From: a virus
Taxonomy: Duplodnaviria > Caudoviricetes
IMG/VR virus record: IMGVR_UViG_3300021399_003927
Coordinates: 65,492 to 129,491 of that record
Direction: 5' to 3' (one strand)
Length of the DNA: 64,000 nucleotides
Part shown: piece by piece, positions 2,174-45,070 of the stretch
Layout of the letters: every line of letters begins with the position of its first letter
How positions within the stretch are numbered: the stretch's first letter is position 1
Notes under the pieces: model-generated
The model's input: only the letters and a program-made list of their open reading frames with translations
What the model was told of the DNA's origin: nothing
The model's database searches: none
Position numbers and translations under genes: made by a program

Positions 2174-2249
2174 GGAAACGTGCTCAGAATGCGACTTTTT
2201 GTTTTTTCAAGAAACATTTACATACTTAAGTTAGTTGCTGTACGTTTCC
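2174..2249 (-). ncRNA. ACAGCAA-stem RNA 1 (short, no tRNA cargo)
   Basis: GGAAACGT-ACAGCAA ... ACGTTTCC. Confidence 0.75.
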
Positions 2250-2287
2250 ACTATTCTATGGATTTTATTATCTTTTTTCCAACTGTG

Positions 2288-2319
2288 CAAAGATATATAT
2301 TTTTTTTCTAACTTCCAAA
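2288..2319 (-). promoter_or_regulatory. Bacteroidetes sigma-A-type promoter (one of about 20 in the window)
   Basis: TTTGG(-33) ... TATCTTTG(-7). Similar sites near 2612, 4230, 6279, 12854, 13681, 14938, 20109, 24631, 26227, 29777, 30600, 34117, 35227, 39297, 41704, 43285, 45109, 50672, 53120, 57362. Confidence 0.85.
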
Positions 2320-2323
2320 TTTT

Positions 2324-2590
2324 TTATGAACTTTTTTCAGCTTTTTTGAAAAATTCTTTCAACTTGGTCAATTCTGCAAGTTGGAAGGTGTATTCATCAG
2401 CACTGATTATCAATTCATCTTTATCTTCTTCAATGCTAACAATCTGTGCCTTTAGCTTTTCAATAAGGCTTGCTTTTAATGCCTCACGATACTTGACGCT
2501 AACTATATTAGTAGCTTCACCTTTACTGTATCCAGCATCACATAAGTTTTTATACAACTCGTTTCTAAACTCTTTGTCTAATATTTTCAT
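2324..2590 (-). CDS. Hypothetical protein
   Basis: 88-aa ORF downstream of a promoter motif, phage-like composition. Confidence 0.7.
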   Translation of the reverse strand: MKILDKEFRNELYKNLCDAGYSKGEATNIVSVKYREALKASLIEKLKAQIVSIEEDKDELIISADEYTFQLAELTKLKEFFKKAEKSS

Positions 2591-3381: not shown

Positions 3382-3591
3382 TTATAAAAATACTGTTTTA
3401 GCCTTGCTTAAAAATTCATCCACATTACCATTAAAAGTGAAACTATTACCTCCTACTCTAATATAGGTTTTTTCTTCACCATCACGGTTTTTATAGTCAT
3501 AAATATAATTTATATCAGCTTTTCTAAACAAATTTTTATGACCATCTGGATTAGTTATTTCCAAAAACGAATTTGTATAATCGTAATTCAT
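3382..3591 (-). CDS. Hypothetical protein
   Basis: 69-aa ORF. Confidence 0.6.
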   Translation of the reverse strand: MNYDYTNSFLEITNPDGHKNLFRKADINYIYDYKNRDGEEKTYIRVGGNSFTFNGNVDEFLSKAKTVFL

Positions 3592-3610
3592 ATTTCTATC
3601 TTAAAAAAAC

Positions 3611-3674
3611 GGAAGCGATTTTCTAGAATTATCAATTAAAAGTTGAGTCCTATTAGAAATTGCTGTAAGCTTCC
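3611..3674 (-). ncRNA. ACAGCAA-stem RNA 2 (short)
   Basis: GGAAGCTT-ACAGCAA ... GCTTCC; starts 2 nt after the upstream tRNA CCA. Confidence 0.75.
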
Positions 3675-3675
3675 T

Positions 3676-3754
3676 TGGTGCTTGCGATAGGATTTGAACC
3701 TACTGTACCCCACTATAAGATGGCGTGTGTCTGCCAATATATCACCCCTCAAGC
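3676..3754 (-). tRNA. Degenerate tRNA (Leu-type D arm, 6-nt loop CTTATA, encoded CCA)
   Basis: GCTTGAG/CGCAAGC-ACCA, T arm GTAGG-TTCAAAT-CCTAT; anticodon ambiguous. Confidence 0.5.
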
Positions 3755-7065: not shown

Positions 7066-7196
7066 GGGTACATAAAACCAACATTTCAACCCCTCCAAGT
7101 TTAAATAAATATTTGCGGAGGGGGTAGGAATCGAACCTACGTTACACAAATTGACAGTCTGCTTGAAGTGTAAATTTAAACTTGCTGTGTGTACCC
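7066..7196 (-). ncRNA. ACAGCAA-stem RNA 3 with permuted tRNA-Asp(GTC) opened in the D loop
   Basis: GGGTACAC-ACAGCAA ... TTCAA, GCAGA-CTGTCAA-TTTGT, T arm, CCCCTCC-G, linker, GGAGGGG, TTGAA ... TGTACCC. Confidence 0.8.
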
Positions 7197-9539: not shown

Positions 9540-10340
9540 TTAAATATTTTGCAAATTGTTTAATATATGTTCTTTCCAATAATTTCTTCTAGTGCTGTTT
9601 TTATTTTTTGACTTAAATGTGTCTAACTGACTATCACAATTAGGACATATCATCCGCAAATTTTCTCTTTTGTTGTTAGAAGCATCACCATCAATATGGT
9701 CTAGTACAAATACTAACGGTTTACCATTATGTTCTGGTTTACCTCCACATATTGGGCATATACCACCTTGTTCCTTTAAGAATTCTTTTTTAAAAGCTTT
9801 TGGTGTATAATTTCCTCTACAGTATTTATTGTTATTTTCTAGAAAATCTTTATAAGATTCTCTATGCCTATGTTCTGCAACACATTTTTCAGAACAATAT
9901 TTAGCATCTTTTACTGTAGTTTCAAAATATTTTCCACAAACAACACATTTTTTTGTATATTTAATTAATTTCTTTTCTTTTTTAATGTGTTCTTTTTTCG
10001 TTTTCTTTAACTTACTAGCAATACCATCATAAACAGATTTATCCCTATGTTCATTGTTATACTTCGCAGCACAAGAACGGCAACAAAATTCCTTACCCCA
10101 TTTATTAGTAATTTCTTTTCCGCATTGCTTACAATATTTAATTATTTTTTTCTTTTTATAAGTATCTAAATCAAATCCAACTGACGTTGCAATTTCTTTC
10201 AAATATTCAGAACCTTGTTTATTATCGCTTATTCCGAAATATTCATGTGCTTGATTTTTGCTAGTAAAACTATCAAATTTATCAAAGACCTCTTTCTTTT
10301 TTTCTTCTGTACTAATGTCAATAATCTTTCTTTTCCTCAT
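9540..10340 (-). CDS. HNH homing endonuclease with Zn-ribbon repeats
   Basis: LDHIDGDASNNKRENLRMICPNCDS; several CxxC motifs. Confidence 0.9.
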   Translation of the reverse strand: MRKRKIIDISTEEKKKEVFDKFDSFTSKNQAHEYFGISDNKQGSEYLKEIATSVGFDLDTYKKKKIIKYCKQCGKEITNKWGKEFCCRSCAAKYNNEHRDKSVYDGIASKLKKTKKEHIKKEKKLIKYTKKCVVCGKYFETTVKDAKYCSEKCVAEHRHRESYKDFLENNNKYCRGNYTPKAFKKEFLKEQGGICPICGGKPEHNGKPLVFVLDHIDGDASNNKRENLRMICPNCDSQLDTFKSKNKNSTRRNYWKEHILNNLQNI

Positions 10341-13865: not shown

Positions 13866-14024
13866 AGGAACGACCAATTTTATGTCTTGGCTCGACATTC
13901 GCTCTTACTTAAGGAGCATAGGTAAGTGCCTCGCAATGATGATTTAACGCTTCTCTTACCCTTGTCTAGTCTGAATTAAAAAATGTTGTTCGTGTAAATT
14001 TTAATCAAACTGCTGTACGTTCCT
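13866..14024 (-). ncRNA. ACAGCA-stem RNA 4 (non-tRNA multi-hairpin cargo)
   Basis: AGGAACGT-ACAGCAG ... CGTTCCT; internal GGTAAG/CTTACC, GCTC/GAGC, ATGTC/GACAT. Confidence 0.7.
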
Positions 14025-14067
14025 ACTGACACGCAGCTAGGCGCAACTGGGCTTCCTAGATACGATG

Positions 14068-14602
14068 TACATCCGCTGGGACTCGAACCCAGAACCTACG
14101 GCTTCGTACTACTCTATGTTACCATAGCCAAACTTAACAATAACGTATATACGAGGCACATGTCCCCATGCATCCAACCGATGATGCGTTAAATTTGTTG
14201 TAGTCTGGAATACATCTTTACCATATTGAAATTCTTGCGCAAGTTGAGCGTGCTTTATACGTTTACACTACTATACACGGTTGAGTATCTTATTGCCTCT
14301 CAATTTCAACTTAGGTATCTCCTATATACTCTCTACACATTTATGAGAATCTTTCACTATCCATCTTCTTCCATTTTATTGATGGCTCTTCTCAATTTAG
14401 CACGGTATAATCCTTACACATTATTGGTTAGTGTGTTTTTCATAAGCGATTGGGCATCTTTGTGTTCCAATGTAACTTCAACTTATTACTCTAACTTAAA
14501 AGAACTTCCACCGTTTTAGGGAGATTCTACTATGGGATTTCTCGCCATAGCATCCAATTTTACATAGAAGGCCGTTGCTCTAATCCATTGAGCTACGGAT
14601 GC
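14068..14602 (-). tRNA. tRNA-Arg(TCT) interrupted by a group I intron (exons 14566-14602 and 14068-14104)
   Basis: Joined exons give ACGGC-CTTCT|AA-GCCGT and a complete cloverleaf. Confidence 0.92.
14105..14565 (-). mobile_element. Group I intron (461 nt) at tRNA position 36/37
   Basis: Exon ends in U paired to G in P1 (TCT|A with TGGA); terminal G; P7 GAGTAT/GTATTC in GTAGAGAGTATA and AAGATGTATTCC. Confidence 0.88.
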
Positions 14603-14969: not shown

Positions 14970-15992
14970 TTATTTTGACCTTTTTAACTTATTTCTATAC
15001 CAATTTTTCAAAATATCATAAATTCCTTTATTTCTTTTAACAAATATATCACCTTGTGGAATCTCCTTTGATGAATATTTTTTGAAACTACCTCTAGCAG
15101 TACCATTTTCCTCATTCCATCTTCCAATGACCCTTCTCATTTTCTTAATCAAATAAGAAATGTTGGCATCGCATAATTTAAAATAGTTTTTTGGTTCATC
15201 TATTCTCCTAATAGATGCATCAATATATTCTTTTGTGTTATCTTTTGTGTAATAATCATCTTTTGAAACATACACTCGTTTCAACAATTTGTAGTCTTTA
15301 ATTGTACCAGATAGCATTTTATAGGTCTTAGTGTCTCTGATGTCATTTTCATATTGTGACTCCATATACATTTCTTGAACCCACGCATCTATTTCGTCTC
15401 TATCTAATCTATAATATATCCAAGGTATCGTATAATCTACAATTTGTTTAATAGGGGTATTTGCGGCTGAATTAAAACCAAATTTGTTTTCTATTTCTCT
15501 TTGCGCCTTTGAATACTGGGGTGTGATATTAGTACCACCTCTTCTATATGACTGATAAGCATGTTTTATTTCGTGATTAATTGTAGATACAATATAGTTT
15601 TTTTCCCTATGAGGTATAGCATCTGTCATTGCCCACACAAACGAAAATGTTATCACTCTATTACTAGGAGAAAAGTTATTTTTCAAATAGCCATTACTAG
15701 AAATAAAATCCATAACGTCATCAAACGTTTCATTCTGTGGGTTATAATAATACAAATTGACAGTAATTCCATTTAAAAAAGACAATGTTTGAATATTATC
15801 AATATCTAAATTAAATGTTTTACCATATATTTTTTTATCACCAATCTGGAACGTTTGGCTTCTATATTCTCTATGATGTTCATATATCAAATTAAAAATG
15901 GCTATAGATATTTGCATAATATCATTTGACACGCCACCATATTCTAATATTACTTCTTTTACTATGGATTCTATGAGATTATTTTTAATCAT
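14970..15992 (-). CDS. Hypothetical protein with HExxH (zincin-like) motif
   Basis: NHEIKH plus downstream EIDA. Confidence 0.75.
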   Translation of the reverse strand: MIKNNLIESIVKEVILEYGGVSNDIMQISIAIFNLIYEHHREYRSQTFQIGDKKIYGKTFNLDIDNIQTLSFLNGITVNLYYYNPQNETFDDVMDFISSNGYLKNNFSPSNRVITFSFVWAMTDAIPHREKNYIVSTINHEIKHAYQSYRRGGTNITPQYSKAQREIENKFGFNSAANTPIKQIVDYTIPWIYYRLDRDEIDAWVQEMYMESQYENDIRDTKTYKMLSGTIKDYKLLKRVYVSKDDYYTKDNTKEYIDASIRRIDEPKNYFKLCDANISYLIKKMRRVIGRWNEENGTARGSFKKYSSKEIPQGDIFVKRNKGIYDILKNWYRNKLKRSK

Positions 15993-16047
15993 AACAAAAA
16001 TGACATCTATTATTTTAATTTATAATAAATATCATTTTAAACTAAAA

Positions 16048-16369
16048 ATAACTGAATGTGTTGTTACACCAAAGACAACGTATATACTTTACGCCTCACG
16101 ATTCACGTTTACAATTCGACCAAGAATCCAGCAGCGGCTTTAAAGGTTCTCCAACTTGACTTCACGAGCCTCATTCGGTCTTATATTTCAGATTCTCAGA
16201 CTTCGACCTCTCGTCTCTCGCCTATTAGGGATTTGCAACTCCCAAGTTATTTGGATGCACCTAGGGTTTTTATACGAGGTGTAAACCCATAAAACATACT
16301 ACCTCACCACTTACTGAGTACTGTCACTCCTTAGAAGATGGACACTACCAATCCTACTTTTTCAGTTAT
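16048..16369 (-). ncRNA. Candidate ~320-nt structured RNA
   Basis: 9-bp terminal stem ATAACTGAA/TTCAGTTAT, GC-elevated, no credible ORF, directly after tRNA-Leu. Confidence 0.5.
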
Positions 16370-16374
16370 CTATG

Positions 16375-16462
16375 TAGGGTAGAAGGGATTCGAACCCCCA
16401 CAAACCTCTCGGTTTCCACATCCTAAGTGTGGTGCGTCTCAACCTAATTGCGCCACTACCCC
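16375..16462 (-). tRNA. tRNA-Leu(TAG)
   Basis: CCACA-CTTAGGA-TGTGG, long V arm. Confidence 0.92.
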
Positions 16463-16475
16463 ATAATAAAAACTC

Positions 16476-16602
16476 GGAAACAATTGTTTTTAGACTGCCG
16501 TGTTTAGCCACTCCACCAACTTTCATCTAAGAAAGTGTGGGATTCGAACCCACGAAATCAATTACGATTAGCTGTTTTGAACAAATATTGCTGTTTGTTT
16601 CC
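16476..16602 (-). ncRNA. ACAGCAA-stem RNA 5 with permuted type-II tRNA module
   Basis: GGAAACAA-ACAGCAA ... ACAGC, V arm, T arm, ACTTTC-TTAGAT-GAAAGT (capped acceptor), D arm, GCAGT ... TTGTTTCC. Confidence 0.8.
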
Positions 16603-16630
16603 TTTATAAAAAAAAGCGATTGAATAATTG

Positions 16631-16704
16631 TAGGGGCGATGGATAATGCTCCCACTATCTCATGCTTATAAGGCATGTGCTTTTACTGTCTAAGCTACAC
16701 CCCA
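16631..16704 (-). tRNA. tRNA-Ile(TAT)
   Basis: CATGC-CTTATAA-GCATG; atypical T loop AGCATTA; T1:T72 mismatch. Confidence 0.8.
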
Positions 16705-16898: not shown

Positions 16899-16916
16899 AT
16901 TGAATTAGTTTTATTG

Positions 16917-16988
16917 AGCAGTGTAGGAGATTCGAACTCCCTCCTTGACCTTGGCAAGGTTATATGCTACCATTAACACCAACACTGC
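16917..16988 (-). tRNA. tRNA-Gly(GCC)
   Basis: Loop TTGCCAA, U73. Confidence 0.9.
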
Positions 16989-17157: not shown

Positions 17158-17303
17158 GGAAACGTTTGTTGTTTATTTTAAGTGCTCTAGCCGACTGAGC
17201 TACCACGCTATGTTATTATAATTTAGCAGCGTGGGCAGGACTCGAACCTGCGACCCCTAGCTTGTAATGCTTTTTTAAACGATATACATTGCTGTACGTT
17301 TCC
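17158..17303 (-). ncRNA. ACAGCAA-stem RNA 6 with permuted tRNA (Val TAC-like)
   Basis: GGAAACGT-ACAGCAA ... TTACAAGCTAG, T arm, CCACGCT-G, AT-rich linker, AGCGTGG, D arm ... CGTTTCC. Confidence 0.82.
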
Positions 17304-17309
17304 ACGTTG

Positions 17310-19534: not shown

Positions 19535-19648
19535 GGATACTTTTGTTTTAACCAATACCTCCGAAGAGGCTTTCTTCCTATTTTTGACGGAAAAATTTGG
19601 ATTCGAACCAAAAAGCTGTAACAAAAGTCACACTTGCTGTTAGTATCC
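19535..19648 (-). ncRNA. ACAGCAA-stem RNA 7 with minimal permuted T/acceptor/D module
   Basis: GGATACTA-ACAGCAA ... TTTGG-TTCGAAT-CCAAA, TTTTTCC ... GGAAGAA, GCCTC-TTCG-GAGGT ... AGTATCC. Confidence 0.78.
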
Positions 19649-19963: not shown

Positions 19964-20098
19964 GGAAACATTTTTTTGCTTTCTCTACCAACTGAGCTAC
20001 CTCCCCAAGTTATCTGATTTTGTGGGGAGGGTGAGACTCGAACTCACGACCCTTTGATTATCAGTCAAATGCTTGCGTAATACTTGCTGTATGTTTCC
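19964..20098 (-). ncRNA. ACAGCAA-stem RNA 8 with complete circularly permuted tRNA-Ile(GAT)
   Basis: GGAAACAT-ACAGCAA ... CA-TTTGA-CTGATAA-TCAAA-GGGTC-T arm-CCTCCCCA, 16-nt linker, GGGGAGG-TA-GCTCAGTTGGTAGAG ... ATGTTTCC. Confidence 0.88.
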
Positions 20099-21306: not shown

Positions 21307-21419
21307 GGAATCCTTTAAACTAAGGTAGGTAGGGAGTCGAACCCTAATCTCTTGGTAAAATCCAAGGCTCTACCATTGAGCTACCCATCTGGAGTTTTTA
21401 CCTTATGCTGCAAGATTCC
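21307..21419 (-). ncRNA. RCAGCA-stem RNA 9 enclosing a non-permuted tRNA-like body
   Basis: GGAATCTT-GCAGCAT ... full cloverleaf with 6-nt loop ATTTTA ... GGATTCC. Confidence 0.72.
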
Positions 21420-25900: not shown

Positions 25901-25976
25901 GGGAACATTTTTAACCGTATTCTTAAAACCCAAATTTAATTACTTGTTAATTCAATAATACTTGCTGTAAGTTCCC
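25901..25976 (-). ncRNA. ACAGCAA-stem RNA 10 (short)
   Basis: GGGAACTT-ACAGCAA ... GTTCCC. Confidence 0.75.
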
Positions 25977-31172: not shown

Positions 31173-31400
31173 TTATTCCTCTGATGCCTTGATGTTCATT
31201 TTAGGCTTCATGAAGAACAAGATATTCACAGTTGGCTCTATGTTTTTGACAATCTCTTCCATTGGCTTATAAGCATCTGGAGCCTCATCCAATGTCTGCT
31301 TATCAGCAGTTGTGGTATAGATGCCAGCTTCAGCCATCTGCTTCTGAAACTCTTCCACGTCAAGGTTCTGTTTTGCTGCTGAACGAGACATAATACGTCC
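31173..31400 (-). pseudogene. Displaced 3' fragment of rtcB
   Basis: GRIMSRSAAKQ ... TLDEAPDAYKP ... MKPKMNIKASEE parallels the RtcB C-terminus. Confidence 0.88.
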
Positions 31401-35471: not shown

Positions 35472-36557
35472 TCAAGTACTTCCCTTACTTTTTTTAACCA
35501 TCCACGTATAATCATTAAGCCAACCATTACGTTGAGCAGCTTGGTATGCAGCACCATTCTTTTTCTTGAACTCGAACTTACCACTATACTTCTTAGCCTC
35601 TTCCATTGCCTTCTCGTAAGTCCATTTCCTAGGTGTCTTAGATGTGTCGAACCAAGTATATGTATCAAGCCACTCATTACGGATACTAGCCTTATACGCT
35701 CCAGGTGCTCTCATAGCAAACTGCTTCTTAGTGCCACAAGTCTTGGCGAACTCATAACACCTCTCTTGAGTCCAATAGTCACAGTCTTCTTGGTATGGTA
35801 TAAACCAAGTATATTCATTAATCCACCCTCTCTTTCTAGACACATTGAATGCCCTCTGATATTTTTCTTCAAACTCAGACCTACAACTGCACTCTTTGGC
35901 TGCTTTGTAACAAGCATCATAAGTCCACTTACCGTTTCCTAGACCACCAACAGACCCACTATTAACACCAGTTTTGCCAACATTGATGATGTTGTACCCA
36001 TCAGCCTTATATTTGTTTTTCCAGTAGTCCTCTCTTGCTAGTCCTTCCTTAATGGTAAGATTTTCTTCAAGTATTACCATTTTAGGGACTTCTAAGCCGT
36101 GTTCTACTGAGTGTCTACGTACTGTGTCATCCTTGTCATAAAGATGCCTACTATGCCTCTCGTCTTGCCTTATCATCAATGTTCTACCAACATACACAGA
36201 GTTAGTTTCTGTGAAGATATAGCAATACACAGAATCAACCTTTGCACCATCAGCTTTAAGGTTAGGTAGCCAGCCGAACTTGTCTAGCCATCCGTTCTCC
36301 TTGCATATATCATATGCCTTTCTGTTCTTGTCGTGGAACTCCCTTCTGCTCTTATACTTCTTAGCTTCCTCATAGCAATGGTCATAATCCTTCCAATAGC
36401 CATTCACTCTCTGGCTTCTAGCCAACCAAGTAAACGTCTTCATCCATCCCTTTCCATATGCAAAGCTACAGTATGCTGGATTCTTCTTATAAAATTCTCT
36501 GAGAGTTGAATATTTCTTTGCTTCATTGAAGCATTGTTCATAGGTAATGTTAATCAT
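35472..36557 (-). CDS. GIY-YIG homing endonuclease with tandem W-rich repeats
   Basis: VYCY ... VYVGRT ... R...H, E..W, IIN; repeats WTYE.C..EAKKY..R.EF ... GWL. Confidence 0.8.
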   Translation of the reverse strand: MINITYEQCFNEAKKYSTLREFYKKNPAYCSFAYGKGWMKTFTWLARSQRVNGYWKDYDHCYEEAKKYKSRREFHDKNRKAYDICKENGWLDKFGWLPNLKADGAKVDSVYCYIFTETNSVYVGRTLMIRQDERHSRHLYDKDDTVRRHSVEHGLEVPKMVILEENLTIKEGLAREDYWKNKYKADGYNIINVGKTGVNSGSVGGLGNGKWTYDACYKAAKECSCRSEFEEKYQRAFNVSRKRGWINEYTWFIPYQEDCDYWTQERCYEFAKTCGTKKQFAMRAPGAYKASIRNEWLDTYTWFDTSKTPRKWTYEKAMEEAKKYSGKFEFKKKNGAAYQAAQRNGWLNDYTWMVKKSKGST

Positions 36558-36661
36558 ATTATAAAGAATTATACTATACCTATAAATATCTGCATACCGC
36601 CAAAAGTTCCGTTTTTTAACAAAAAAATTCACCTACATTCTCAAGTGTAGGTGAACTAAGT

Positions 36662-38014
36662 TTACTCAGCAGCTTTGATGTTCATGCGAGGTTTCATCAT
36701 ATATAGAACATTGACTGTAGGTTCTATCAGTTTGACTATTTCCTCATAAGGTTTATAAGCTTCTGGGGCTTCGTCTAACGTGGAGGCATCTGCTGTAGTT
36801 GTATATACCCCTGCTGCTGCCATTTCAGCCTTAAAGTCCTCTACGTTGAGCTGCTGATGGGCTTTCGTCCTTGAGAGTGACCTACCACAGCCGTGCGGAG
36901 CTGTATAGTTCCAATCCTCATTTGACTTACCCTCACAGATTGAAATACCATCCCTCATGTTAAATGGAATAATTACCCTTTCGCCAGCGTAAGCACGAAT
37001 AGCACCTTTACGAATCATCATATTAGGCTTACCCATAAGTGCCTTAAGGTCATAGTCGATGTAGTTATGCGTAGTGTGAATGGTATCAATTATACTTGCA
37101 CCTTTCGCCATCTTCCTATAGATGTCAACCACTTGCTCAATAATTGTCTCGTGGTTCAAACGAGCATACTCTTGTGCAAGCAATACATCAACAAGATAAC
37201 CCATAAGGTTCTCACCACTCAGATAACCTGGAATCTTCTTTGACAGATATTCCTCTTTTGCTGCTTTGATTTCTGACGCAAGGTTCTTCTTATCCGTGTT
37301 CTTTTCTTTTACGGAATCGGTAAGCATTTTCATTTCCTCTTTGGTAATCACCATGCTCTTGGCAATCTTATTCCAGTAGTTAAATACCTTTAGACCAAGA
37401 TTACGTGAGCCGCAGTGCACACAGATACAATACTTACCCAACTCATCATTTACATCATACTCAAGAAAATGATTACCACCCCCAACAGTACCGATAGACT
37501 TGAGGAACACACCGTAATCCATGTTTATCTTCTTACACCATGCCTCCAAATCCCTCTCTGTAGTCATTTCTACGCGATAAGGGGCAAGCTGTGGATAGAA
37601 TGAACACATACGGTTAAGAGCGGCGTTAAAACGCTTTATAACGAATTTGACATCTATCTTCTTCTTGTCATTGATTTCAAATCCAAAAGGAATGGCCTTT
37701 CTAATTTTGTGTTCAAACTCCTTCATTGCATCGTCACCAATAGGTTTGTCGAAAAACACAGCAGATATGGTACAACCTAAATCGCATCCCACCACTTCTG
37801 GCGAAACAAAATCATGCTCAATATCTATTGGGCAAGAAAAACCGATGACGCAACCCTTTCCTTGGTGTACATCTGGCATTATTCTTATTTTTTTATTTTT
37901 ATAAGCCATAGATTCTGCCATTTTGTATATGGTAGATAATGCTTCTTTTTCTATATTATCCGTAAATATTTTAATATCTTTACAATATTTCCCTTTCAAT
38001 TCTAATGCGTCCAT
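36662..38014 (-). CDS. rtcB: RNA ligase RtcB
   Basis: MPDVH, GCDLGC, GGGNHF, HCGSR, HNY, HGCGR, DEAPEAYK. Confidence 0.95.
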   Translation of the reverse strand: MDALELKGKYCKDIKIFTDNIEKEALSTIYKMAESMAYKNKKIRIMPDVHQGKGCVIGFSCPIDIEHDFVSPEVVGCDLGCTISAVFFDKPIGDDAMKEFEHKIRKAIPFGFEINDKKKIDVKFVIKRFNAALNRMCSFYPQLAPYRVEMTTERDLEAWCKKINMDYGVFLKSIGTVGGGNHFLEYDVNDELGKYCICVHCGSRNLGLKVFNYWNKIAKSMVITKEEMKMLTDSVKEKNTDKKNLASEIKAAKEEYLSKKIPGYLSGENLMGYLVDVLLAQEYARLNHETIIEQVVDIYRKMAKGASIIDTIHTTHNYIDYDLKALMGKPNMMIRKGAIRAYAGERVIIPFNMRDGISICEGKSNEDWNYTAPHGCGRSLSRTKAHQQLNVEDFKAEMAAAGVYTTTADASTLDEAPEAYKPYEEIVKLIEPTVNVLYMMKPRMNIKAAE

Positions 38015-38952
38015 AACTCTTTTACTATTTTATTTATGAATTTGTAACGGCAACAAAGTCCGTAACATGTTCTACTATTTTCTCTAAATTCTTTTCTTGA
38101 ACTATACTTACTAGCTTCTTCTAAACAGTTCTCGTATGTCCAATATCCATTGTTGTGTATCTTCTCCTTGAGCCAATCATACTCATCTATCCATTTGTTC
38201 TTTCTAGCTGCCCTATATGCGCCATAACAAGTTTTTTGGAACTCAGTTCTAGATGAATACTTCTTGGCTTCCTCATAGCACAATTCATATGTCCATTTTT
38301 TCAACGAGCCACCTAAAGAGCCACTATCCTTGCCAGTTTTACCTGTATTCAGAACATTTACCCCCTCCTCTCTAAGTTGCTGTACATAATGGTCTTCCAT
38401 CTTACGAGCATCTTCAGCGTTAAGGTTCTCTTCTAAAACAATTGGCTTTGGTATAGGAAGATTGTTACCATCCGCATATTTTTTAACTATACTGAGGTAT
38501 GTCTTACCGTTTTTCCTAATTTCCTTTTTGTGAGTCCTATCACGCTCTCTGAGGTCTTTGGTGAGTCCAACGTAGGCTGTATTAGTTTCTTCCCACAAAT
38601 ACTTGTATACAACATATTTCTTCGTATCTAGGTCATACACGCCCATATCGTTGACAAGCCAAGTAAAATCTTTCAACCAATCCATTTTCAAACACTTCCT
38701 GTACACCACGTAGTTGTTAGCATTGAAGTTAGAGTATGAGGTATATTTCTTAGCCTCTTCCTCACACCTCTCGTGCGTCCAGTATCCAATAGGCTTGGAA
38801 TTTGGTCTTGTCTCAAACCAGTCCTTTAACCAGCCCTTCACATATGCTTTGGCAAATGCGCCACTTTCTTTTTTTCTGAGTTCTCTAGCACTCTTACAAG
38901 TCTTAGCTAGTTCCTCGCATCTTTCGTATGTCCAATAACCGTGTGATTTCAT
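38002..38952 (-). CDS. GIY-YIG homing endonuclease with tandem W-rich repeats
   Basis: VYKY ... AYVGLT ... R...H, LN; paralog of 35472-36557. Confidence 0.8.
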   Translation of the reverse strand: MKSHGYWTYERCEELAKTCKSARELRKKESGAFAKAYVKGWLKDWFETRPNSKPIGYWTHERCEEEAKKYTSYSNFNANNYVVYRKCLKMDWLKDFTWLVNDMGVYDLDTKKYVVYKYLWEETNTAYVGLTKDLRERDRTHKKEIRKNGKTYLSIVKKYADGNNLPIPKPIVLEENLNAEDARKMEDHYVQQLREEGVNVLNTGKTGKDSGSLGGSLKKWTYELCYEEAKKYSSRTEFQKTCYGAYRAARKNKWIDEYDWLKEKIHNNGYWTYENCLEEASKYSSRKEFRENSRTCYGLCCRYKFINKIVKELWTH

Positions 38953-41685: not shown

Positions 41686-41781
41686 ATTATTTTATGTTTT
41701 TTGCAAATATACGAAAAAAAGTTGGATTAACCAAACGATTAACCCAACTTTTAACATTATAGATAGAAAAAGTCGATTTTT

Positions 41782-43056
41782 TTAAGAATTTTTTGCAACT
41801 ATAAGGCAATAATCCTTTTTACCTTTCTGTAGAAGAACATATTTACCCCAAGGGTTAGTAAACACCGCTTTTTCATCGTTTACCTTCTCTCTGTTGACCG
41901 AAAAGCCGTTTGCCTTGATGAGCTTACGAGCCTCGGACTTTGAAGGAACTTTGTCATGCATGAGAGCTAAGTCTAGGGCTGTAATGCCGTTAATTTTATC
42001 CTTTTCAACTTCAATGGTTGTTACCTCTGACTTAATGGCTTCCCAACCATTTTCATCAAGTTCCGATACAGGCAGACCACCGAACAGAAAGTCAGTTGCT
42101 TGCTGAACTCCAACCAACGCATCCTTGCCATGCACAAGTTCAGTCATATACTTAGCAAGCTTATTCTGTAGCAAACGTTTGCTTGGGTTCTCACGATGCT
42201 GTTTAATCATTTCGTTAATCTCGTCAAGAGGAATGAGTGTAAACAGCTTAATGAAACGTTCAGAGTCTTCGTCAGACTGATTCAACCAAAATTGATAGAA
42301 TTCATATGGACTTGTCTTTTCTGCGTCAAGCCAAATATTACCCTTCTCTGACTTGCCAAACTTAGTGCCGTCAGCCTTAGTCACAAGAGGCCATGTAATC
42401 ATGCAAGCATCTGTGCCGCCAACCATCTTACGGATAAGCTCAATGCCAGTTGTACCATTACCGTATTGGTCACTACCACCAATCTGCAACTTACAGTTGT
42501 ACTTTCTGTAAAGCTCTACAAAATCGTAGCCTTGAATCAACTGATAAGTAAATTCTGTAAATGACATACCGTTGCCATCACGCTCAAGACGCTTTTTAAC
42601 GGATTCCTTTGCCATCATGTAGTTTACGCTGATACACTTGCCAACCTCACGCGCAAAATCAATGAAAGAAAAATCCTTCATCCAATCATAGTTATTCACC
42701 ATGATTGCACCATTCGGTTCGTTTGAGTTGAAATCAAGCAATTTGCTCACTTGGGCATGAATACCCTTAATGTTATGTGCCACAGTCTCAGCACTAAGCA
42801 GTTTACGTTCCTCTGCCTTAAACGAAGGGTCTCCGATAAATGCCGTAGCACCGCCTAAAAGAACGATAGGCTTATGGCCATACTTCTGCAACAGTTTAGC
42901 GGTTGTAAAGGCAAGCAAATGGCCTAAATGAAGACTATCTGCTGTAGGGTCAGTACCCACGTAAAACACGGTTGGTGTCTTTAACAATTCCTCTAGATTG
43001 CCAGAGGTGCTTGCAAGAAGACCTCTTTCTTTAAGTTCTGAAATTAATGGATTCAT
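41782..43056 (-). CDS. tyrS: Tyrosyl-tRNA synthetase
   Basis: DPTADSLHLGH, QIGGSDQYGN, KFGKS, C-terminal S4 domain. Confidence 0.96.
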   Translation of the reverse strand: MNPLISELKERGLLASTSGNLEELLKTPTVFYVGTDPTADSLHLGHLLAFTTAKLLQKYGHKPIVLLGGATAFIGDPSFKAEERKLLSAETVAHNIKGIHAQVSKLLDFNSNEPNGAIMVNNYDWMKDFSFIDFAREVGKCISVNYMMAKESVKKRLERDGNGMSFTEFTYQLIQGYDFVELYRKYNCKLQIGGSDQYGNGTTGIELIRKMVGGTDACMITWPLVTKADGTKFGKSEKGNIWLDAEKTSPYEFYQFWLNQSDEDSERFIKLFTLIPLDEINEMIKQHRENPSKRLLQNKLAKYMTELVHGKDALVGVQQATDFLFGGLPVSELDENGWEAIKSEVTTIEVEKDKINGITALDLALMHDKVPSKSEARKLIKANGFSVNREKVNDEKAVFTNPWGKYVLLQKGKKDYCLIVAKNS

Positions 43057-43396
43057 CTGTATTTTATTTTAATATTAAAGGTTTTACTACAATGTTTCTG
43101 CATAAACCACCAATCTTTTTTTCCTTATTATGGAATCAGAAATAGCGGCTAACTGTTCATATGTTAGGCTTCCCTTTTTTGTCTTAGAAGATGAATTCGT
43201 TCTATTTCTTTTCCTTTTTGATTTACTTTTCTTGAAAAAAAAGAACATGATTATATTACTATTTATTGTTTACAATTTTCAATGCAAATATATATAAAAA
43301 AAATTACAATTACAAGATAGTTAACATTGTTTAACAAAAAAAAATGAGCATAGACTTTCGTCAATGCTCATGAAAACAGTAAAAGTATAGAATCAG

Positions 43397-45070
43397 TTAC
43401 ATATTGATGTAACTCAAAATCTCTTGGTTAAGAGCCTTGGCAACAAGTTCCTCTGCGGTCATTTGACGAACTTGTCCAGTCACCTCGTCAATGACCTTTG
43501 TTTCTCCTAGGAGCAATGAAATAATCGAGCCATCATAGCCACTAAAGAAATGACATCCTGGGGTCAAAGCATTTCCCTCAAAGTCTTGCGTCCTACGTGA
43601 AGCGCAATCCCACCAAATCCACTTCATATTGTCCACAAAGTCACTTGGGAACACAGTCTTCAATGACCTTACAGAATACTCGTAGTTGGTAGGCTCTGTA
43701 CGCCTTGAACGCCAACCATAGCCAACAGGATTGAACTGCATATCACTGACAACTAGGATGGTTGTAGGATACTGCTCAAGAGGAATCTCTGGGTGCTCCT
43801 TCCTAATCTTGATGATTTCATCAACGGCAGATTGGAAGTTAGTGCCGCCACAGCCCACACTTGGAAGGTTCATGATGCGGTCACAGAATGACTCTCCCTT
43901 CATGTCGTAAGGATATGACACGTCATCGAACATGATGACCTTGTTGTGGAAAGGTCCAGTATTGAGGTCAGCGAAGAACAATGCAAGTGAACTTGCAATA
44001 TCCTCACAAGTGATGTCCTTAATACCTTCTGCTTGACGGCTCATAGAACCGCTAGTGTCAAGACAGCACCAAACGTTCTCCGTAATCTTGCCATCGGCAC
44101 GTGCCTTATCAACAAGACCCTTGAACTGAGCGTCAAGCGTGTGCTTAACCTCAATAGATATGTTCTTACTACCGCCATAGTAGCCCCTACTACCGCGTGC
44201 CTCACGCAGCTTACGAGCAAGCTCGAAAACGTAGCCTGTGAATTTGGCCACTGGCTGTGCCATAATCCACTTCGTGTACTCATCCTTCAAATTGTGGTTT
44301 GAAAGGAACTTAGAGGTCACAAGGAGATTAAGTGCACGTCCTGGAATGTGACTCCAATTCAAAGCGTCATAGTTACGAGAACAGATGAGCTTTTGGAAAT
44401 CGTGTCCATTACCACTAGTCTTGAGCTTGTTGTACTCCTTATAGGTAAGACCCATGTGCTCTGCAAACTCCTTTGCAAGACCATTGGTAATCTTAGTCCA
44501 AGGAGTCTTACACTTGCTCTGAGACTTGATGCGAGGCATATACTTCTTCACTAGGTCAACATGCGTGTCGCAAAGAAGACCTTGCGCAATAACCTCATAG
44601 ATGGTCTTACGATTAACCACATTGGTAGCCTCGTTGATGTCATAGAACATCAGAGTCCAAAGGTCTTTCCAAGAACCAACAAGAGGGAGTGCCCAAATGT
44701 TGTTGTTGAAAACCTCTGAATGCTCTTGAGCAATCCAAAGCAAACGCTTGAATGACTCGTCACGAGCACCTTGGCCGTTCTGAACCTTATCGGTCTCATT
44801 GTCAGCGTTCACCTTCACCTTACGAGTAATCATACGCAAGTAGAATGGGAAACGCAAAGCAGCCTCTGCATTCTCAGCCCAAATCTGAGCTTGGTCTGCA
44901 AACACCTCTGCAATAGGACGGCCTCTAAAATTGCCAGCCTTGCCAAACTGGTCAACAATTGCGCTGCCAGTTGATACGTTTGTTACTGCGCCATTCTCAG
45001 TCAAAGTAGTTGACTTGTAGTTAACGGCATTGATAAACGCATTTGTCTTAGTTGCTGTCTTTGTATTCAT
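43397..45070 (-). CDS. DUF2828 / TROVE(Ro60)-like protein with C-terminal vWA domain
   Basis: TENGA, GQGAR, GSWKDL, KYMPR helical region; MIDAS DTSGS, GGTNF, SDMQF. Confidence 0.8.
   Translation of the reverse strand: MNTKTATKTNAFINAVNYKSTTLTENGAVTNVSTGSAIVDQFGKAGNFRGRPIAEVFADQAQIWAENAEAALRFPFYLRMITRKVKVNADNETDKVQNGQGARDESFKRLLWIAQEHSEVFNNNIWALPLVGSWKDLWTLMFYDINEATNVVNRKTIYEVIAQGLLCDTHVDLVKKYMPRIKSQSKCKTPWTKITNGLAKEFAEHMGLTYKEYNKLKTSGNGHDFQKLICSRNYDALNWSHIPGRALNLLVTSKFLSNHNLKDEYTKWIMAQPVAKFTGYVFELARKLREARGSRGYYGGSKNISIEVKHTLDAQFKGLVDKARADGKITENVWCCLDTSGSMSRQAEGIKDITCEDIASSLALFFADLNTGPFHNKVIMFDDVSYPYDMKGESFCDRIMNLPSVGCGGTNFQSAVDEIIKIRKEHPEIPLEQYPTTILVVSDMQFNPVGYGWRSRRTEPTNYEYSVRSLKTVFPSDFVDNMKWIWWDCASRRTQDFEGNALTPGCHFFSGYDGSIISLLLGETKVIDEVTGQVRQMTAEELVAKALNQEILSYINM

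What the first reader, a model, noticed from the sequence alone, without database searches (positions are those of the whole stretch)
2174..45070. Candidate new system: ten ACAGCAA-stem RNAs with permuted tRNA modules, a Ro60/TROVE-like DUF2828 protein and RtcB
Seen in sequence: ten minus-strand elements (2174-2249, 3611-3674, 7066-7196, 13866-14024, 16476-16602, 17158-17303, 19535-19648, 19964-20098, 21307-21419, 25901-25976). Each begins with exactly 8 nt followed by RCAGCA (ACAGCAA in eight), and its first 6-8 nt pair with the 3' end. The stems covary (GGAAAC/GTTTCC, GGAAGC/GCTTCC, GGGTAC/GTACCC, GGATAC/GTATCC, GGAATC/GATTCC, GGGAAC/GTTCCC). Five enclose tRNA modules in permuted order (T arm and 3' acceptor strand before the 5' strand and D arm), one encloses a linear tRNA-like body, four carry other cargo. 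Six start within 8 nt of an upstream tRNA 3' end. Established: bacterial Ro60 (Rsr) binds the terminal stem of Y RNAs, YrlA RNAs contain a tRNA-like module with a loop-capped acceptor stem, and Salmonella rsr-yrlBA is co-operonic with rtcBA. Inference: the DUF2828/vWA protein (43397-45070) is a Ro-like clamp whose handle is this stem+ACAGCAA rather than the canonical Y RNA GGUCCGA. It could present interchangeable tRNA mimics as decoys for anticodon nucleases, as tethers for RtcB repair, or as precursors of real tRNAs.
Basis: partly seen in the sequence, partly recalled or inferred. Interest (0 to 1): 0.95.

Follow-up and report, generated by a model that had tools for sequence, protein, structure and literature searches.

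The report
Phage Ro60-like protein with handle RNAs
A large phage carries a dozen small RNAs that share one short "handle" but display different look-alikes of tRNA parts, together with a ring protein shaped like the RNA-binding autoantigen Ro60; the same pairing sits in many phages, laboratory ones included, and is probably an undescribed relative of the Ro60/Y-RNA particle.

Summary
All ten minus-strand elements exist as written, and two more lie just before the window. Each has 8 nt, then RCAGCA, and a covarying 6-8-bp stem joining its ends.

The 557-aa DUF2828 protein folds like Ro60 (Z 24.3 over 410 residues) and keeps the MIDAS motif.

The RNA-protein link cannot be seen in this window, where the nearest RNA is 17 kb from the gene. 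It shows elsewhere:
- In 80 metagenomic phage loci encoding a relative of the protein, 98 strict ACAGCAA elements lie on the gene's strand and 3 on the other. Many form tandem arrays touching the gene or overlap its start codon.
- 11 of 14 sampled cultured phages show the same, including Felix O1, Listeria P100 and a mycobacteriophage.
- A covariance model built only from distant loci recovers three window elements with exact ends (E 4e-11 to 0.003).

The cargo mimics tRNA: YrlA-like permuted tRNA bodies and anticodon hairpins, Lys(UUU) commonest. RtcB is only an occasional neighbour (9 of 26 records). The handle matches that of Dictyostelium Class I RNAs.

Binding and function are untested. 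A decoy or tether role in conflicts over tRNA is my best guess. This scan has already reported the same system on many other genomes.

The parts
2174..2249 (-). Handle RNA, 76 nt. Stem GGAAACGT/ACGTTTCC, ACAGCAA. Cargo includes a hairpin with a 7-nt loop CTTGAAA.
   Evidence: Model R1, built only from distant phages, hits it with exact ends at 22.4 bits, E 0.0031.
3611..3674 (-). Handle RNA, 64 nt. Cargo is an anticodon-stem-loop look-alike TCAA[CTTTTAA]TTGA, Lys UUU type.
   Evidence: R1 hit with exact ends at 51.6 bits, E 4e-11. Pair counts on alignment A4: 97.1% of cells paired, 7 of 12 pairs changed on both sides.
7066..7196 (-). Handle RNA, 131 nt. Permuted tRNA-like body: anticodon-type hairpin (GUC), T arm, loop-capped acceptor, weak D arm.
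   Evidence: Orthologues in G001, G002, G004 and G005.
13866..14024 (-). Handle RNA variant, 159 nt. Stem AGGAAC/GTTCCT, ACAGCAG, other cargo.
   Evidence: Orthologues with AGGAAC or AGGGAC heads in G002-G006 and G013.
16476..16602 (-). Handle RNA, 127 nt. Permuted tRNA-like body: T arm, capped acceptor, D-arm-like part.
17158..17303 (-). Handle RNA, 146 nt. YrlA-like module: T arm, capped acceptor, full D arm.
   Evidence: Rfam YrlA RF02553 at 41 bits, E 5e-6, below the gathering score of 69. Compensatory changes in T and acceptor stems among 8 orthologues.
19535..19648 (-). Handle RNA, 114 nt. T arm, capped acceptor, and a GCCTC-TTCG-GAGGT hairpin in place of the D arm.
19964..20098 (-). Handle RNA, 135 nt. 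Whole tRNA-Ile(GAU)-like cloverleaf in permuted order with a loop-capped acceptor. Preceded by a TAnnTTTG-type promoter-like motif.
   Evidence: Rfam YrlA at 31.3 bits. Alignment A2 of 6 orthologues: 100% of 173 cells paired and 7 of 29 pairs changed on both sides, against at most 52% paired in slid controls. Upstream sequence.
21307..21419 (-). Handle RNA, 113 nt. Stem GGAATC/GATTCC, GCAGCAT, linear tRNA-like body with a 6-nt 'anticodon' loop.
25901..25976 (-). Handle RNA, 76 nt. Lies between tRNA-Glu and tRNA-Gln, with a hairpin cargo.
   Evidence: R1 hit with exact ends at 30.7 bits, E 1.8e-5.
43397..45070 (-). Ro60-like protein, 557 aa: helical ring plus a vWA domain with MIDAS D338-x-S340-x-S342. 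Proposed partner of the handle RNAs.
   Evidence: Pfam DUF2828 + DUF7788 + weak VWA_2, with no TROVE hit at E<=0.01. PHROG 850 'RNA-binding protein', E 2.6e-45. AF2 pLDDT 91.5. Ro60 1yvp_A at Z 24.3, rmsd 3.9 over 410 residues. Invariant MIDAS in 74 homologues.
36662..38014 (-). RtcB RNA ligase. An occasional neighbour of the system, not a constant part.
   Evidence: Pfam RtcB E 1.4e-59. Present in 9 of 26 DUF2828-encoding records.

Best explanation
These are the small-RNA partners of a phage branch of the Ro60 family, a second kind of Ro/Y-RNA particle.

Each RNA has two parts.
- A constant handle: the two ends pair in a 6-8-bp stem whose sequence is free to covary. On the 5' side the stem is followed by one or two nucleotides and the single-stranded ACAGCAA. 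On the 3' side it is preceded by an A-rich strand. A U-run often follows.
- A variable cargo that imitates tRNA. This is either an anticodon stem-loop with a 7-nt YU-NNN-RN loop, or a whole tRNA body in permuted order with the acceptor end sealed by a loop, as in bacterial YrlA.

Inferred: the ring-shaped DUF2828 protein grips the handle and leaves the tRNA look-alike exposed.

Inferred, less sure: the particle offers these look-alikes to proteins that recognise tRNA. It would act as a decoy or sponge for host tRNA-cutting defence nucleases, or as a tether that brings repair or decay enzymes to damaged tRNA. Either way it would protect the phage's translation.

Copies of the handle that overlap the protein's own ribosome-binding site or start codon in several lineages suggest that the protein also represses its own mRNA.

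Shown here: the RNA structures (by covariation), the Ro60 fold, and the genomic coupling. Not shown: binding, processing and function.
For: 1. RNA family is real.
- Closure of the stem in 96 of 100 heads, against 19-28% in controls.
- 67 distinct 6-nt stems among 98 strict elements.
- Pair counts: A4 has 97.1% of cells paired and 7 of 12 pairs changed on both sides, with 0 of 500 shuffles as high. A2 has 100% of 173 cells paired and 7 of 29 pairs changed on both sides.

2. Protein is Ro60-like.
- Z 24.3 / 410 residues / rmsd 3.9 to Xenopus Ro60. All ten top entries are Ro60, including phage phiLo at Z 16.6. The next fold class scores 10.7 or less.
- The 12 best Foldseek rows are all Ro60 structures (ranks 1-12, 10 PDB entries).
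- A profile search of PDB sequences gives Ro60 first, E 7.7e-4.
- MIDAS is invariant.

3. Coupling of RNA and gene.
- Five complete relatives carry 10-16 motif hits each, against 0-2 for the reversed pattern.
- In 80 IMG/VR loci encoding homologues (down to about 33% identity), strict ACAGCAA elements number 98 on the gene strand and 3 on the other. Within -2.5..+4.2 kb of the start the counts are 60 and 1, in 30 of 80 loci.
- Arrays of 2-6 elements about 6-7 nt apart lie directly after the stop or before the start.
- Elements overlap the RBS or start codon in L071, L073, L090, L100, L103, L106 and L123.
- 11 of 14 sampled cultured phages have same-strand elements within about 2 kb of the gene.
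- Model R1, built from 19 elements of distant loci only, gives as its three best window hits 3611-3674, 25901-25976 and 2174-2249 with exact ends.

4. Cargo is tRNA mimicry.
- Rfam YrlA aligns the T arm, capped acceptor and D arm of 17158-17303.
- 25 of 63 short elements from other phages carry an anticodon-type hairpin, against 2.5 in shuffles. Of these, 12 have a UUU loop.

5. Literature (passages read).
- Ro60 binds the Y RNA stem (PMC12135203).
- YrlA was proposed as a competitive inhibitor of an anticodon nuclease (PMC7790460).
- In a P100-like Listeria phage the homologue CKA15_055 lies within 2 kb downstream of three very highly transcribed unannotated regions and is found in virions (PMC12282133).
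- Bas63 gp130, with a Ro60-like fold and sitting upstream of the tRNA genes, counters the Ppl defence (preprint PMC11482910).
Against: - No binding evidence of any kind. The tools fold no RNA-protein complex.
- In this window the nearest element is 17.4 kb from the gene, so the coupling rests on other genomes, and relatives share features by descent.
- The handle does not match the canonical Ro-binding helix. The stems are mispaired in the YrlA alignment, and Pfam TROVE does not hit the protein. The binding mode therefore cannot be carried over by homology.
- 50 of 80 metagenomic loci have no strict element within -2.5..+4.2 kb. Some of these have arrays further off, and some are short contigs.
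- 3 of 14 cultured loci fail the filter. One of them, phiAS5, shows nothing even by eye.
- My relaxed finder gives 17 hits in 327 kb of unrelated viral loci, so single loose hits are unreliable.
- For Dictyostelium Class I RNAs, which share the handle, the one protein reported to bind directly is an RRM protein (PMC7919456), not a Ro-like protein.
- RNA-library data here are contigs only. They show presence, not transcription, ends or abundance of the elements.
- I did not verify that the three abundant CKA15 RNAs are the three P100 elements.
Confidence: 0.65

Rival explanations
1. Permuted tRNA genes. The elements would be precursors whose ends are cut, joined by RtcB into a circle and then opened at the acceptor by RNase P/Z to give working tRNAs, as in the red alga Cyanidioschyzon (recalled).
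For: - 19964-20098 holds every part of a tRNA-Ile(GAU) cloverleaf in permuted order.
- RtcB is encoded 16.6 kb away, 36662-38014 against 19964-20098.
- An orthologue in G002/G004 has ACCA after the acceptor 3' strand.
Against: - RtcB is absent from 17 of 26 DUF2828 records, including five with elements.
- Most cargo is not a whole tRNA: anticodon hairpins alone, missing or replaced D arms.
- In G005 the acceptor is sealed by a 4-nt loop.
- The contig already has conventional tRNA-Ile(GAU), Cys(GCA), Lys(UUU), Asp(GUC), Ser(UGA) and Pro(UGG). All 7 cargo anticodons in G000 duplicate conventional genes.
- The same handle is kept on every cargo type.
- I saw no bulge-helix-bulge at the junction, by eye only.
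Confidence: 0.05
2. Punctuation of tRNA operons. The stem plus U-run elements would be terminators, processing sites or stabilisers of polycistronic tRNA transcripts, with no link to the DUF2828 protein.
For: - In this window all elements sit inside the tRNA array, 1-7 nt from tRNAs in several cases.
- 52 of 96 are followed by a run of 4 or more T within 12 nt, against 9 of 96 upstream.
Against: - In many phages the elements follow or precede the DUF2828 gene where no tRNA array is adjacent, for example Leptolyngbya phage and L099, L105, L107.
- An invariant single-stranded ACAGCAA and tRNA-mimic cargo are not needed for termination.
- The 98:3 strand coupling to the gene.
Confidence: 0.1
3. 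The handle is bound by another protein, of host or phage, for instance an RRM-type or other small RNA-binding protein as reported for Dictyostelium Class I RNA. The Ro-like protein would be only a frequent neighbour acting on other RNAs such as damaged tRNAs.
For: - Class I RNAs with the same handle design bind the RRM protein Rnp1A directly (PMC7919456 passages).
- The canonical Ro-binding helix is absent.
Against: - Tight same-strand adjacency, and copies overlapping the gene's own start codon, in lineages with 33-50% protein identity.
- I saw no other gene that travels with the RNAs, but I did not test this systematically.
Confidence: 0.12
4. Miniature mobile elements. The complementary ends would be terminal inverted repeats of a MITE-like element or targets of the nearby GIY-YIG/HNH endonucleases.
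For: - Many copies with inverted ends.
- Homing-endonuclease ORFs and an IS1595-type transposase lie in the region.
Against: - The ends differ between copies while staying complementary, which is covariation, not conserved repeats.
- Orthologous copies occupy the same slots in related genomes.
- Inner helices also covary.
- Near-total strand bias.
Confidence: 0.03

Closest known systems
Ro60 (Rsr) with Y RNAs, especially tRNA-mimicking YrlA (Rfam RF02553; Chen et al. 2014, PMC4201824), including phage cases (mycobacteriophages, CcrColossus, Bacillus phage G, Thermus phage phiLo; PMC12135203)
   Same: - A ring protein of the Ro60 fold with a vWA/MIDAS domain.
- Small RNAs whose 5' and 3' ends pair in a terminal stem.
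- RNA genes beside the protein gene on the same strand.
- A tRNA-like module with T arm, loop-capped acceptor and D arm in five of the ten window elements.
   Different: - The protein is the DUF2828/DUF7788 branch, with no Pfam TROVE hit and 10-15% identity to solved Ro60s.
- The handle is a free-sequence stem plus ACAGCAA, not the conserved Ro-binding helix.
- There are 10-16 RNAs per genome instead of 1-4.
- Cargo includes bare anticodon hairpins and tRNAs opened in the D loop rather than the anticodon loop.
- Scores stay below Rfam's threshold (41 against 69 bits).
Class I RNAs of dictyostelid social amoebae (Rfam RF01414; Aspegren 2004, cited only; Mosig 2006, PMC5054030; Kjellin 2021, PMC7919456)
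   Same: - About 60-nt RNAs with a short covarying stem joining the 5' and 3' ends, a conserved 5' G, a conserved single-stranded motif next to the 5' strand, and a variable rest (passages).
- The published search pattern GTTGRCCTTACAGCAA ... GTCAACTG contains the same ACAGCAA after a 6-nt stem strand.
- Rfam RF01414 aligns two Listeria phage P100 elements end to end at 23.1 and 19.1 bits.
   Different: - They are eukaryotic and were reported as unique to Dictyostelia.
- Spacing is 9 nt before ACAGCAA instead of 8.
- No tRNA-like cargo has been described.
- The known direct binder is an RRM protein.
- The two window elements I tested (3611-3674, 25901-25976) give no RF01414 hit at E<=10. All hits are below the gathering score of 41.5.
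- I could not test whether amoebae pair these RNAs with a DUF2828 protein.
Salmonella rsr-yrlBA-rtcBA RNA repair operon (Hughes et al. 2020, PMC7790460)
   Same: A Ro-type protein, tRNA-mimic RNAs and RtcB in one genome. A proposed link to tRNA cleavage, with the mimic as a possible nuclease inhibitor.
   Different: - Here RtcB is 5.4 kb from the protein gene, separated by other ORFs, and is missing from 17 of 26 related records.
- I did not look for RtcA or RtcR.
Ro-like proteins already noticed in laboratory phages: CKA15_055 of a P100-like Listeria phage (PMC12282133), Bas63 gp130 (preprint PMC11482910), 'Ro-like RNA binding protein' of cluster L mycobacteriophages (PMC13148394)
   Same: - The same protein family by tblastn. 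Listeria, Felixounavirus and Mycobacterium records are among 593 hits.
- The authors guessed that neighbouring abundant RNAs or 'tRNA genes' might be Y RNAs.
   Different: In the passages I read, those papers do not define the RNAs: no handle, no ACAGCAA, no cargo rule. I found the elements in P100plus (3, directly upstream), Felix O1-type FO1a (4, downstream) and Gardann (2) myself.

Membership tests
Ro60 / TROVE protein family | Closed ring of helical (HEAT-like) repeats followed by a vWA domain | tested here: met
   AF2 model pLDDT 91.5, pTM 0.91. 1yvp_A at Z 24.3, rmsd 3.9, 410 residues aligned over model 18-526. All ten best entries are Ro60.
Ro60 / TROVE protein family | MIDAS motif (DxSxS) in the vWA domain | tested here: met
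   D338, S340 and S342 are invariant in 74 homologues.
Ro60 / TROVE protein family | Sequence membership (Pfam TROVE PF05731) | tested here: not met
   Pfam gives DUF7788, DUF2828 and weak VWA_2 only, at E<=0.01. The profile against PDB reaches Ro60 only in the vWA part, E 7.7e-4.
Ro60 / TROVE protein family | Binds the terminal stem of Y RNAs | not testable with these tools
   Only genomic coupling is shown.
YrlA-type Y RNA (Rfam RF02553) | 5' and 3' ends pair in a terminal stem | tested here: met
   10 of 10 window elements.
YrlA-type Y RNA (Rfam RF02553) | tRNA-like module: T arm, loop-capped acceptor stem, D arm | tested here: met
   Aligned to the model in 17158-17303 and 19964-20098. Present in 5 of 10 elements. 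The other 5 lack it.
YrlA-type Y RNA (Rfam RF02553) | Conserved Ro-binding helix, and a score at or above the gathering threshold | tested here: not met
   Best score is 41 bits against 69. The outer stems are marked as non-pairs in the alignment.
YrlA-type Y RNA (Rfam RF02553) | Encoded next to the Ro gene (within 4 kb in Chen et al. 2014) | tested here: not met
   In this window the nearest element is 17.4 kb from the gene. The feature is met in 30 of 80 related loci and 11 of 14 cultured phages.
Dicty_Class_I_RNA (Rfam RF01414) | Short covarying terminal stem with a conserved 5' G, plus a single-stranded motif containing ACAGCAA beside the 5' strand | tested here: met
   Architecture from PMC7919456, pattern from PMC5054030. 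Window elements.
Dicty_Class_I_RNA (Rfam RF01414) | Score at or above the gathering threshold (41.5 bits) | tested here: not met
   No hit at E<=10 on window 3590-3700 or 25890-25990. P100plus elements score 23.1 and 19.1 bits.
Permuted tRNA genes (circularised precursors) | 3' half upstream of the 5' half, with all cloverleaf parts present | tested here: met
   Met for 19964-20098 and its orthologues only.
Permuted tRNA genes (circularised precursors) | Junction motif for an endonuclease and ligase, and a mature re-joined tRNA | not tested
   I saw no bulge-helix-bulge by eye. No read-level RNA data. RtcB is absent from 17 of 26 related records.
Rtc RNA repair operon | RtcB co-encoded with the Ro-type gene and its RNAs | tested here: inconclusive
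   Present in this contig and 8 other records, absent from 17. Present 1.3 kb downstream of the gene in Listeria phage P100plus. RtcA and RtcR were not searched.

The most novel reading that the evidence does not exclude
The ACAGCAA-handle RNAs of phages and the Class I RNAs of social amoebae are one ancient RNA family, and DUF2828 proteins are their common partner. Together they would form a second Ro/Y-RNA lineage spread over viruses, bacteria and eukaryotes. In phages the particle would be a programmable display rack. Swapping the cargo (anticodon loops of Lys, Asp, Tyr, His, Cys, Ser and others, or whole sealed tRNAs) would retarget it against whichever tRNA-cutting immune nuclease the host carries. 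It may even travel inside the virion to act at the moment of injection.
Probability: 0.25. Interest if true: 0.95.

Novelty: new variant of a known kind. Interest (0 to 1): 0.88.

Why it matters
Ro60 and Y RNAs are studied in autoimmunity and bacterial RNA quality control, yet what the tRNA-like Y RNAs do is still open.

- **Scale and access.** This family (593 cultured-phage records by tblastn) has a partner RNA that can be recognised from sequence alone. It has a fixed handle and exchangeable tRNA-mimic cargo, and it occurs in phages that can be grown in the laboratory (Felix O1 group, Listeria P100 group, cluster L mycobacteriophages).
- **Testability.** Binding, structure and counter-defence roles become directly testable.
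- **Published puzzles.** It would explain the very abundant unannotated RNAs beside CKA15_055 and the counter-defence phenotype of Bas63 gp130.
- **Annotation.** It gives a rule for annotating hundreds of unlabelled intergenic RNAs in phage tRNA regions.
- **Class I RNAs.** The shared handle offers a concrete candidate partner for Dictyostelium Class I RNAs, which have lacked a mechanism for twenty years.

Tried and rejected
- **DNA search of cultured phages.** Megablast of window 15000-27000 against the phage collection gave no match.
- **Rfam.** At gathering thresholds only tRNA and tmRNA were found.
- **First alignment for a handle model.** Alignment A6 of 63 short elements was ragged at the 3' end, so I did not build a model from it. 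I used a flush 19-sequence subset instead. That model is tuned to short anticodon-hairpin cargo. The long-cargo elements appear only as weak partial hits (E 1-7) that begin at the true 5' ends at 16602, 7196, 20098, 19648 and 17303. I do not count these as evidence.
- **IMG/VR-wide exact scan.** The 18-letter pattern returned 42 loci. Of these, 35 are single unclosed hits of an unrelated repeated sequence or chance. 7 carry at least one closed element: 6 are multi-element arrays and one, L173 (a 1,390-base locus), holds a single closed element. 5 of the 7 lie on contigs already known to carry the gene and 2 lie on contigs too short to tell. This is too close to kin to count as an independent test.
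- **Motif in the window's own DUF2828 leader.** ACAGCAA occurs 6 nt before the start codon and again inside the first codons (45076-45082 and 45052-45058). The leader is not kept in the closest relatives, and the coding copy is explained by the conserved N-terminus. I drop it for this window. The operator idea rests on other lineages.
- **RNA libraries.** 20 listed runs hold part of the stretch, and 4 were laid. Contigs from RNA libraries cover 13866-14024, 19535-19648 and 21307-21419 without differences (X1), 19971-20102 (X6) and 16416-17102 (X2, a relative). These are contigs, so they show neither transcription nor ends nor levels of the elements. Parts without cover say nothing.
- **ESM Atlas.** It returned only the protein's own DUF2828/DUF7788 clusters. 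It gave no view of eukaryotic members, so the amoeba protein link is untested.
- **Papers I could not read.** Burroughs & Aravind 2016 (NAR 44:8525) and Sim et al. 2020 (Annu Rev Microbiol) are not held. They may already place DUF2828 in the Ro/TROVE group or mention its RNAs. Supplements (Chen 2014 phage table, CKA15 coordinates) were closed, so I could not check whether any of their phage Y RNAs are handle RNAs. I also could not check that the three abundant CKA15 RNAs coincide with the three P100 elements.
- **Claim 'not in print'.** This rests on searches only.
- **Note from an earlier scan.** It says that part of the same claim fell when checked on other DNA. I could not learn which part.
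- **Complex prediction** was not used, because it takes proteins only.

Full report
**What the window is.** The window is the last 64 kb of a 129,491-base viral contig, estimated 44% complete. Its close relatives are complete phage genomes of 295-412 kb. The left 26 kb of the window is an RNA-gene region on the minus strand. ARAGORN tRNAs and a tmRNA. Rfam at its own thresholds finds only tRNA and tmRNA. The right part encodes, on the same strand, TelA, a helicase-methyltransferase, RtcB (36662-38014), NAD synthase, TyrRS (41782-43056) and the DUF2828 protein (43397-45070).

**The observation.**
- Each starts with 8 nt followed by RCAGCA, which reads ACAGCAA in 8 of 10.
- In each, the first six bases are the exact complement of the last six.
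- A blind scan of the whole contig for '8 nt + RCAGCA + closing 6-mer' returns these ten plus two more just before the window. All twelve are on the minus strand within 39 kb.
- ACAGCAA is about twice as frequent in the window as in shuffles (23 against 12.3; 0 of 100 shuffles reach it).
- Across 539 kb of this phage and relatives, heads of the form GGNNNC-NN-RCAGCA are closed in 96 of 100 cases, against 28% and 19% for two kinds of control head.
- The seventh base pair, which I did not require, forms in 49 of 59 distinct elements with four pair types.
- An A-rich tract precedes the 3' strand.
- A run of T follows 52 of 96 elements, against 9 of 96 upstream.
- The statement about six adjoining tRNA 3' ends is only half backed by a tRNA finder.

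**The RNAs are structured and conserved.**
- Five complete relatives carry 10-16 pattern hits each, strand-biased and clustered. The reversed pattern gives 0-2.
- Orthologous copies keep their helices through compensatory change. In the tRNA-Ile-like group (6 sequences), 100% of 173 cells pair and 7 of 29 pairs change on both sides. Slid controls reach at most 52%.
- In 12 short elements from seven genomes, 97.1% of cells pair and 7 of 12 pairs change on both sides. No shuffle in 500 is as high for cells paired or for the covariation score.
- In the Ile-like group the D stem is formed between the two ends of the cargo. The tRNA is therefore opened in its D loop, and the handle grows out of that opening. 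In the window's own copy the break is near position 24/25.

**The cargo.** Rfam's YrlA model aligns the T arm, loop-capped acceptor and D arm of 17158-17303 (41 bits, E 5e-6) and of 19964-20098 (31 bits). It cannot pair the outer stems, and both hits stay below the gathering score of 69. So the module is YrlA-like and the handle is not.

The short elements carry hairpins with 7-nt loops of anticodon-loop form.
- 3611-3674 has CTTTTAA, the Lys UUU type.
- Orthologous slots in related genomes hold GUC, GUA, GCU and GUG loops.
- Among 63 short elements from distant metagenomic and cultured phages, 25 have such a hairpin against 2.5 expected, and 12 of them read UUU.
- The cargo anticodons mostly repeat conventional tRNA genes of the same phage. 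In this contig all 7 do, including Ile(GAU) at genome 63756-63832. This argues against the elements supplying missing tRNAs.

**The protein.**
- Pfam gives DUF2828 (N-terminal), DUF7788 and a weak vWA hit, but no TROVE. PHROGs gives family 850, 'RNA-binding protein'.
- With an alignment of 74 homologues (invariant DxSxS), AlphaFold2 gives a confident model (pLDDT 91.5).
- The 12 best Foldseek rows are all Ro60 structures (ranks 1-12, 10 PDB entries).
- VIA-align gives Z 24.3, rmsd 3.9 A over 410 residues to Xenopus Ro60 with RNA. Human, Deinococcus and Thermus-phage Ro60 score down to Z 13.9. Everything else is vWA-only at Z 10.7 or less.
By sequence it is a separate branch.

**The link between RNA and protein.** In this window the nearest element is 17.4 kb from the gene, so I looked elsewhere.
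- Twenty further IMG/VR records encoding homologues show clusters of the GG-type pattern down to about 50% protein identity. One 179-kb phage at 34% identity has four elements with fully compensated stems next to the gene.
- Several lineages that seemed to lack the pattern turned out to carry variant stems directly in front of the gene. Some have the 3' strand of the stem lying on the ribosome-binding site or start codon (L071, L073, L083, L087, L090, L100).
- A relaxed finder was run over 80 loci (1.45 Mb). It accepts any covarying 6-bp stem, requires one extra pair, the 8-nt offset and an A-rich 3' strand. It gives 134 elements on the gene's strand, 13 on the other and 17 in reversed sequence.
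- With exact ACAGCAA the counts are 98 against 3. Within -2.5..+4.2 kb of the start they are 60 against 1, in 30 of 80 loci, with 67 different stems.
- In the smaller, more distant phages the elements form tandem arrays 6-7 nt apart, directly after the stop or before the start.
- Unrelated viral loci give 17 loose hits in 327 kb. Single loose hits therefore mean little. The arrays, the strand and the position are what count.

**Cultured phages.** tblastn finds the protein in 593 phage records. I sampled 14 loci.
- Same-strand elements within about 2 kb occur in 11: Felix O1-type FO1a (4), Listeria P100plus (3, directly upstream, in a stretch unannotated in all 54 Listeria records that hold it), mycobacteriophage Gardann (2), Enterococcus Ben (1), Leptolyngbya phage (4), Bacillus Chewbecca (3, inside its tRNA array), Staphylococcus SEP9 (1), Vibrio BUCT194 (2), Campylobacter CP39 (1), Citrobacter Moogle (3) and a Klebsiella phage (1).
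- Two more (phiN3, K566) have short copies before the ATG that I saw only by eye. One (phiAS5) has none.
- P100plus also has RtcB 1.3 kb downstream and 18 tRNAs upstream.

**An independent test.** A covariance model was built from 19 elements of distant loci, none from this phage or its close kin. It was run without filters over the window.

**RtcB.** The Pfam RtcB model hits 9 of 26 DUF2828-encoding records. It misses G007, G008, G010, G011 and G023, which carry elements. RtcB is an occasional neighbour, not a defining part.

**What is in print** (passages read unless stated).
- Chen et al. 2014 found YrlA RNAs within 4 kb of TROVE genes in 254 bacteria and 22 phages.
- The phiLo study shows that a phage Ro60 binds two Y-like RNAs through a conserved CGAA motif.
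- Iyer et al. 2021 mention a ROT/TROVE protein in some jumbo phages.
- Hughes et al. 2020 suggest that YrlA's tRNA-like domain may inhibit an anticodon nuclease.
- The CKA15 paper reports a Rsr-like protein (by HHpred) present in virions. Three very highly transcribed unannotated regions lie within 2 kb upstream, and the authors guess these are Y RNAs.
- The PhageMaP preprint reports that Bas63 gp130, with a Ro60-like fold and sitting upstream of the tRNA genes, counters the Ppl defence.
- LeBron gp53 ('Ro-like') is toxic when overproduced.
- None of these passages defines the handle or the cargo rule.
- Five papers contain 'DUF2828', none about RNA.
- I could not read Burroughs & Aravind 2016 or Sim et al. 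2020.

**The amoeba connection.** A note of this scan pointed to Dictyostelium Class I RNAs. I checked it.
- Kjellin et al. 2021 describe about 60-nt RNAs with a short covarying stem joining the ends, an invariant 5' G, a conserved single-stranded 11-nt motif beside the 5' strand and a variable rest.
- Mosig et al. 2006 print the search pattern GTTGRCCTTACAGCAA ... GTCAACTG.
- Rfam RF01414 aligns two P100 elements end to end at 23.1 and 19.1 bits, below its threshold of 41.5.
- Two window elements give no hit.
- The design is the same. Common descent or a common partner is not shown.

**How it most likely works.**
- Shown: a conserved RNA handle with exchangeable tRNA-mimic cargo, a Ro60-fold protein, and their tight genomic coupling.
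- Inferred from Ro60/Y RNA: the protein holds the handle.
- Inferred from cargo and context (tRNA arrays, tmRNA, TyrRS, sometimes RtcB): the particle presents tRNA look-alikes to tRNA-recognising proteins, most plausibly host nucleases that cut anticodon loops. It may instead tether repair or decay enzymes. That such nucleases target Lys(UUU) and the Asp/Tyr/His/Asn group is recalled knowledge, not tested here.
- Copies over the gene's own start codon suggest autoregulation.
- I put 0.65 on the RNP reading and roughly half of that on the decoy role.

**Verdict.** The RtcB part is weak. It is a new variant of a known kind (Ro60/Y RNA). It is widespread and experimentally accessible, and I found no description of it in the searches I could run. 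This scan has already reported the same system on many other genomes.

Noticed in passing
window ~14031-14570 (-) and ~17310-17800 (-): Two paralogous tRNA genes are each split in the anticodon loop by a ~450-480-nt insert. The two copies share blocks of 100% identity (alignment A5). Rfam finds no group I or II intron there, and ARAGORN misses both tRNAs. Contigs of four gut metatranscriptome runs laid on these inserts have by far the highest summed depth of the 7.7-kb stretch (up to 33,548 against under 100 in most other bins), with many variant joints. Each insert-bearing tRNA lies just upstream of a handle RNA and downstream of paralogous 340-aa ORFs.
   Followed up: partly
window 1037-1470 (-): Full-length sub-threshold match to GOLLD RNA (RF02032): 73.7 bits, E 1.4e-17, gathering score 150.
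   Followed up: no
contig 63924-64009 (-), 1.5 kb before the window; also in the tRNA arrays of G001-G005 and G013: A tRNA with anticodon CUA (amber-suppressor type, called 'Pyl' by ARAGORN) is kept across the related phages. This hints at TAG read-through or recoding.
   Followed up: no
window 31188-31400 (-): A second, 76-aa open frame matches only the C-terminal end of RtcB (model positions 352-425, E 4e-13). It lies 5 kb from the full-length rtcB.
   Followed up: no
window 23847-24695 (-): IS1595-type transposase ORF (DDE_Tnp_IS1595 plus zinc ribbon) inside the RNA-gene region. GIY-YIG ORFs flank rtcB at 35472-36632 and 38002-38952, and an HNH ORF lies at 9540-10340.
   Followed up: no
window 45100-45130 (-), 20100-20125 (-), 2255-2300 (-); leaders of L009-L019: A recurring upstream motif of the form ...TTTTCATATCTTTGCA... 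(TAnnTTTG type) precedes the DUF2828 gene and two handle RNAs. It resembles the Bacteroidota promoter consensus as I recall it, which suggests a Bacteroidota host and that some handle RNAs are primary transcripts.
   Followed up: no
window 19649-19720 (-) and 21420-21500 (-): T arm plus acceptor-like 3' strands end 4-5 nt before two handle RNAs, yet neither ARAGORN nor Rfam calls a whole tRNA there. These may be further remodelled tRNA-like genes.
   Followed up: no
L188 (Listeria phage P100plus) 5654-5916; 54 Listeria phage records: The three handle RNAs directly upstream of the DUF2828 gene lie in a stretch carrying no annotation in any of the 54 records that hold it at 90% identity or more.
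   Followed up: partly
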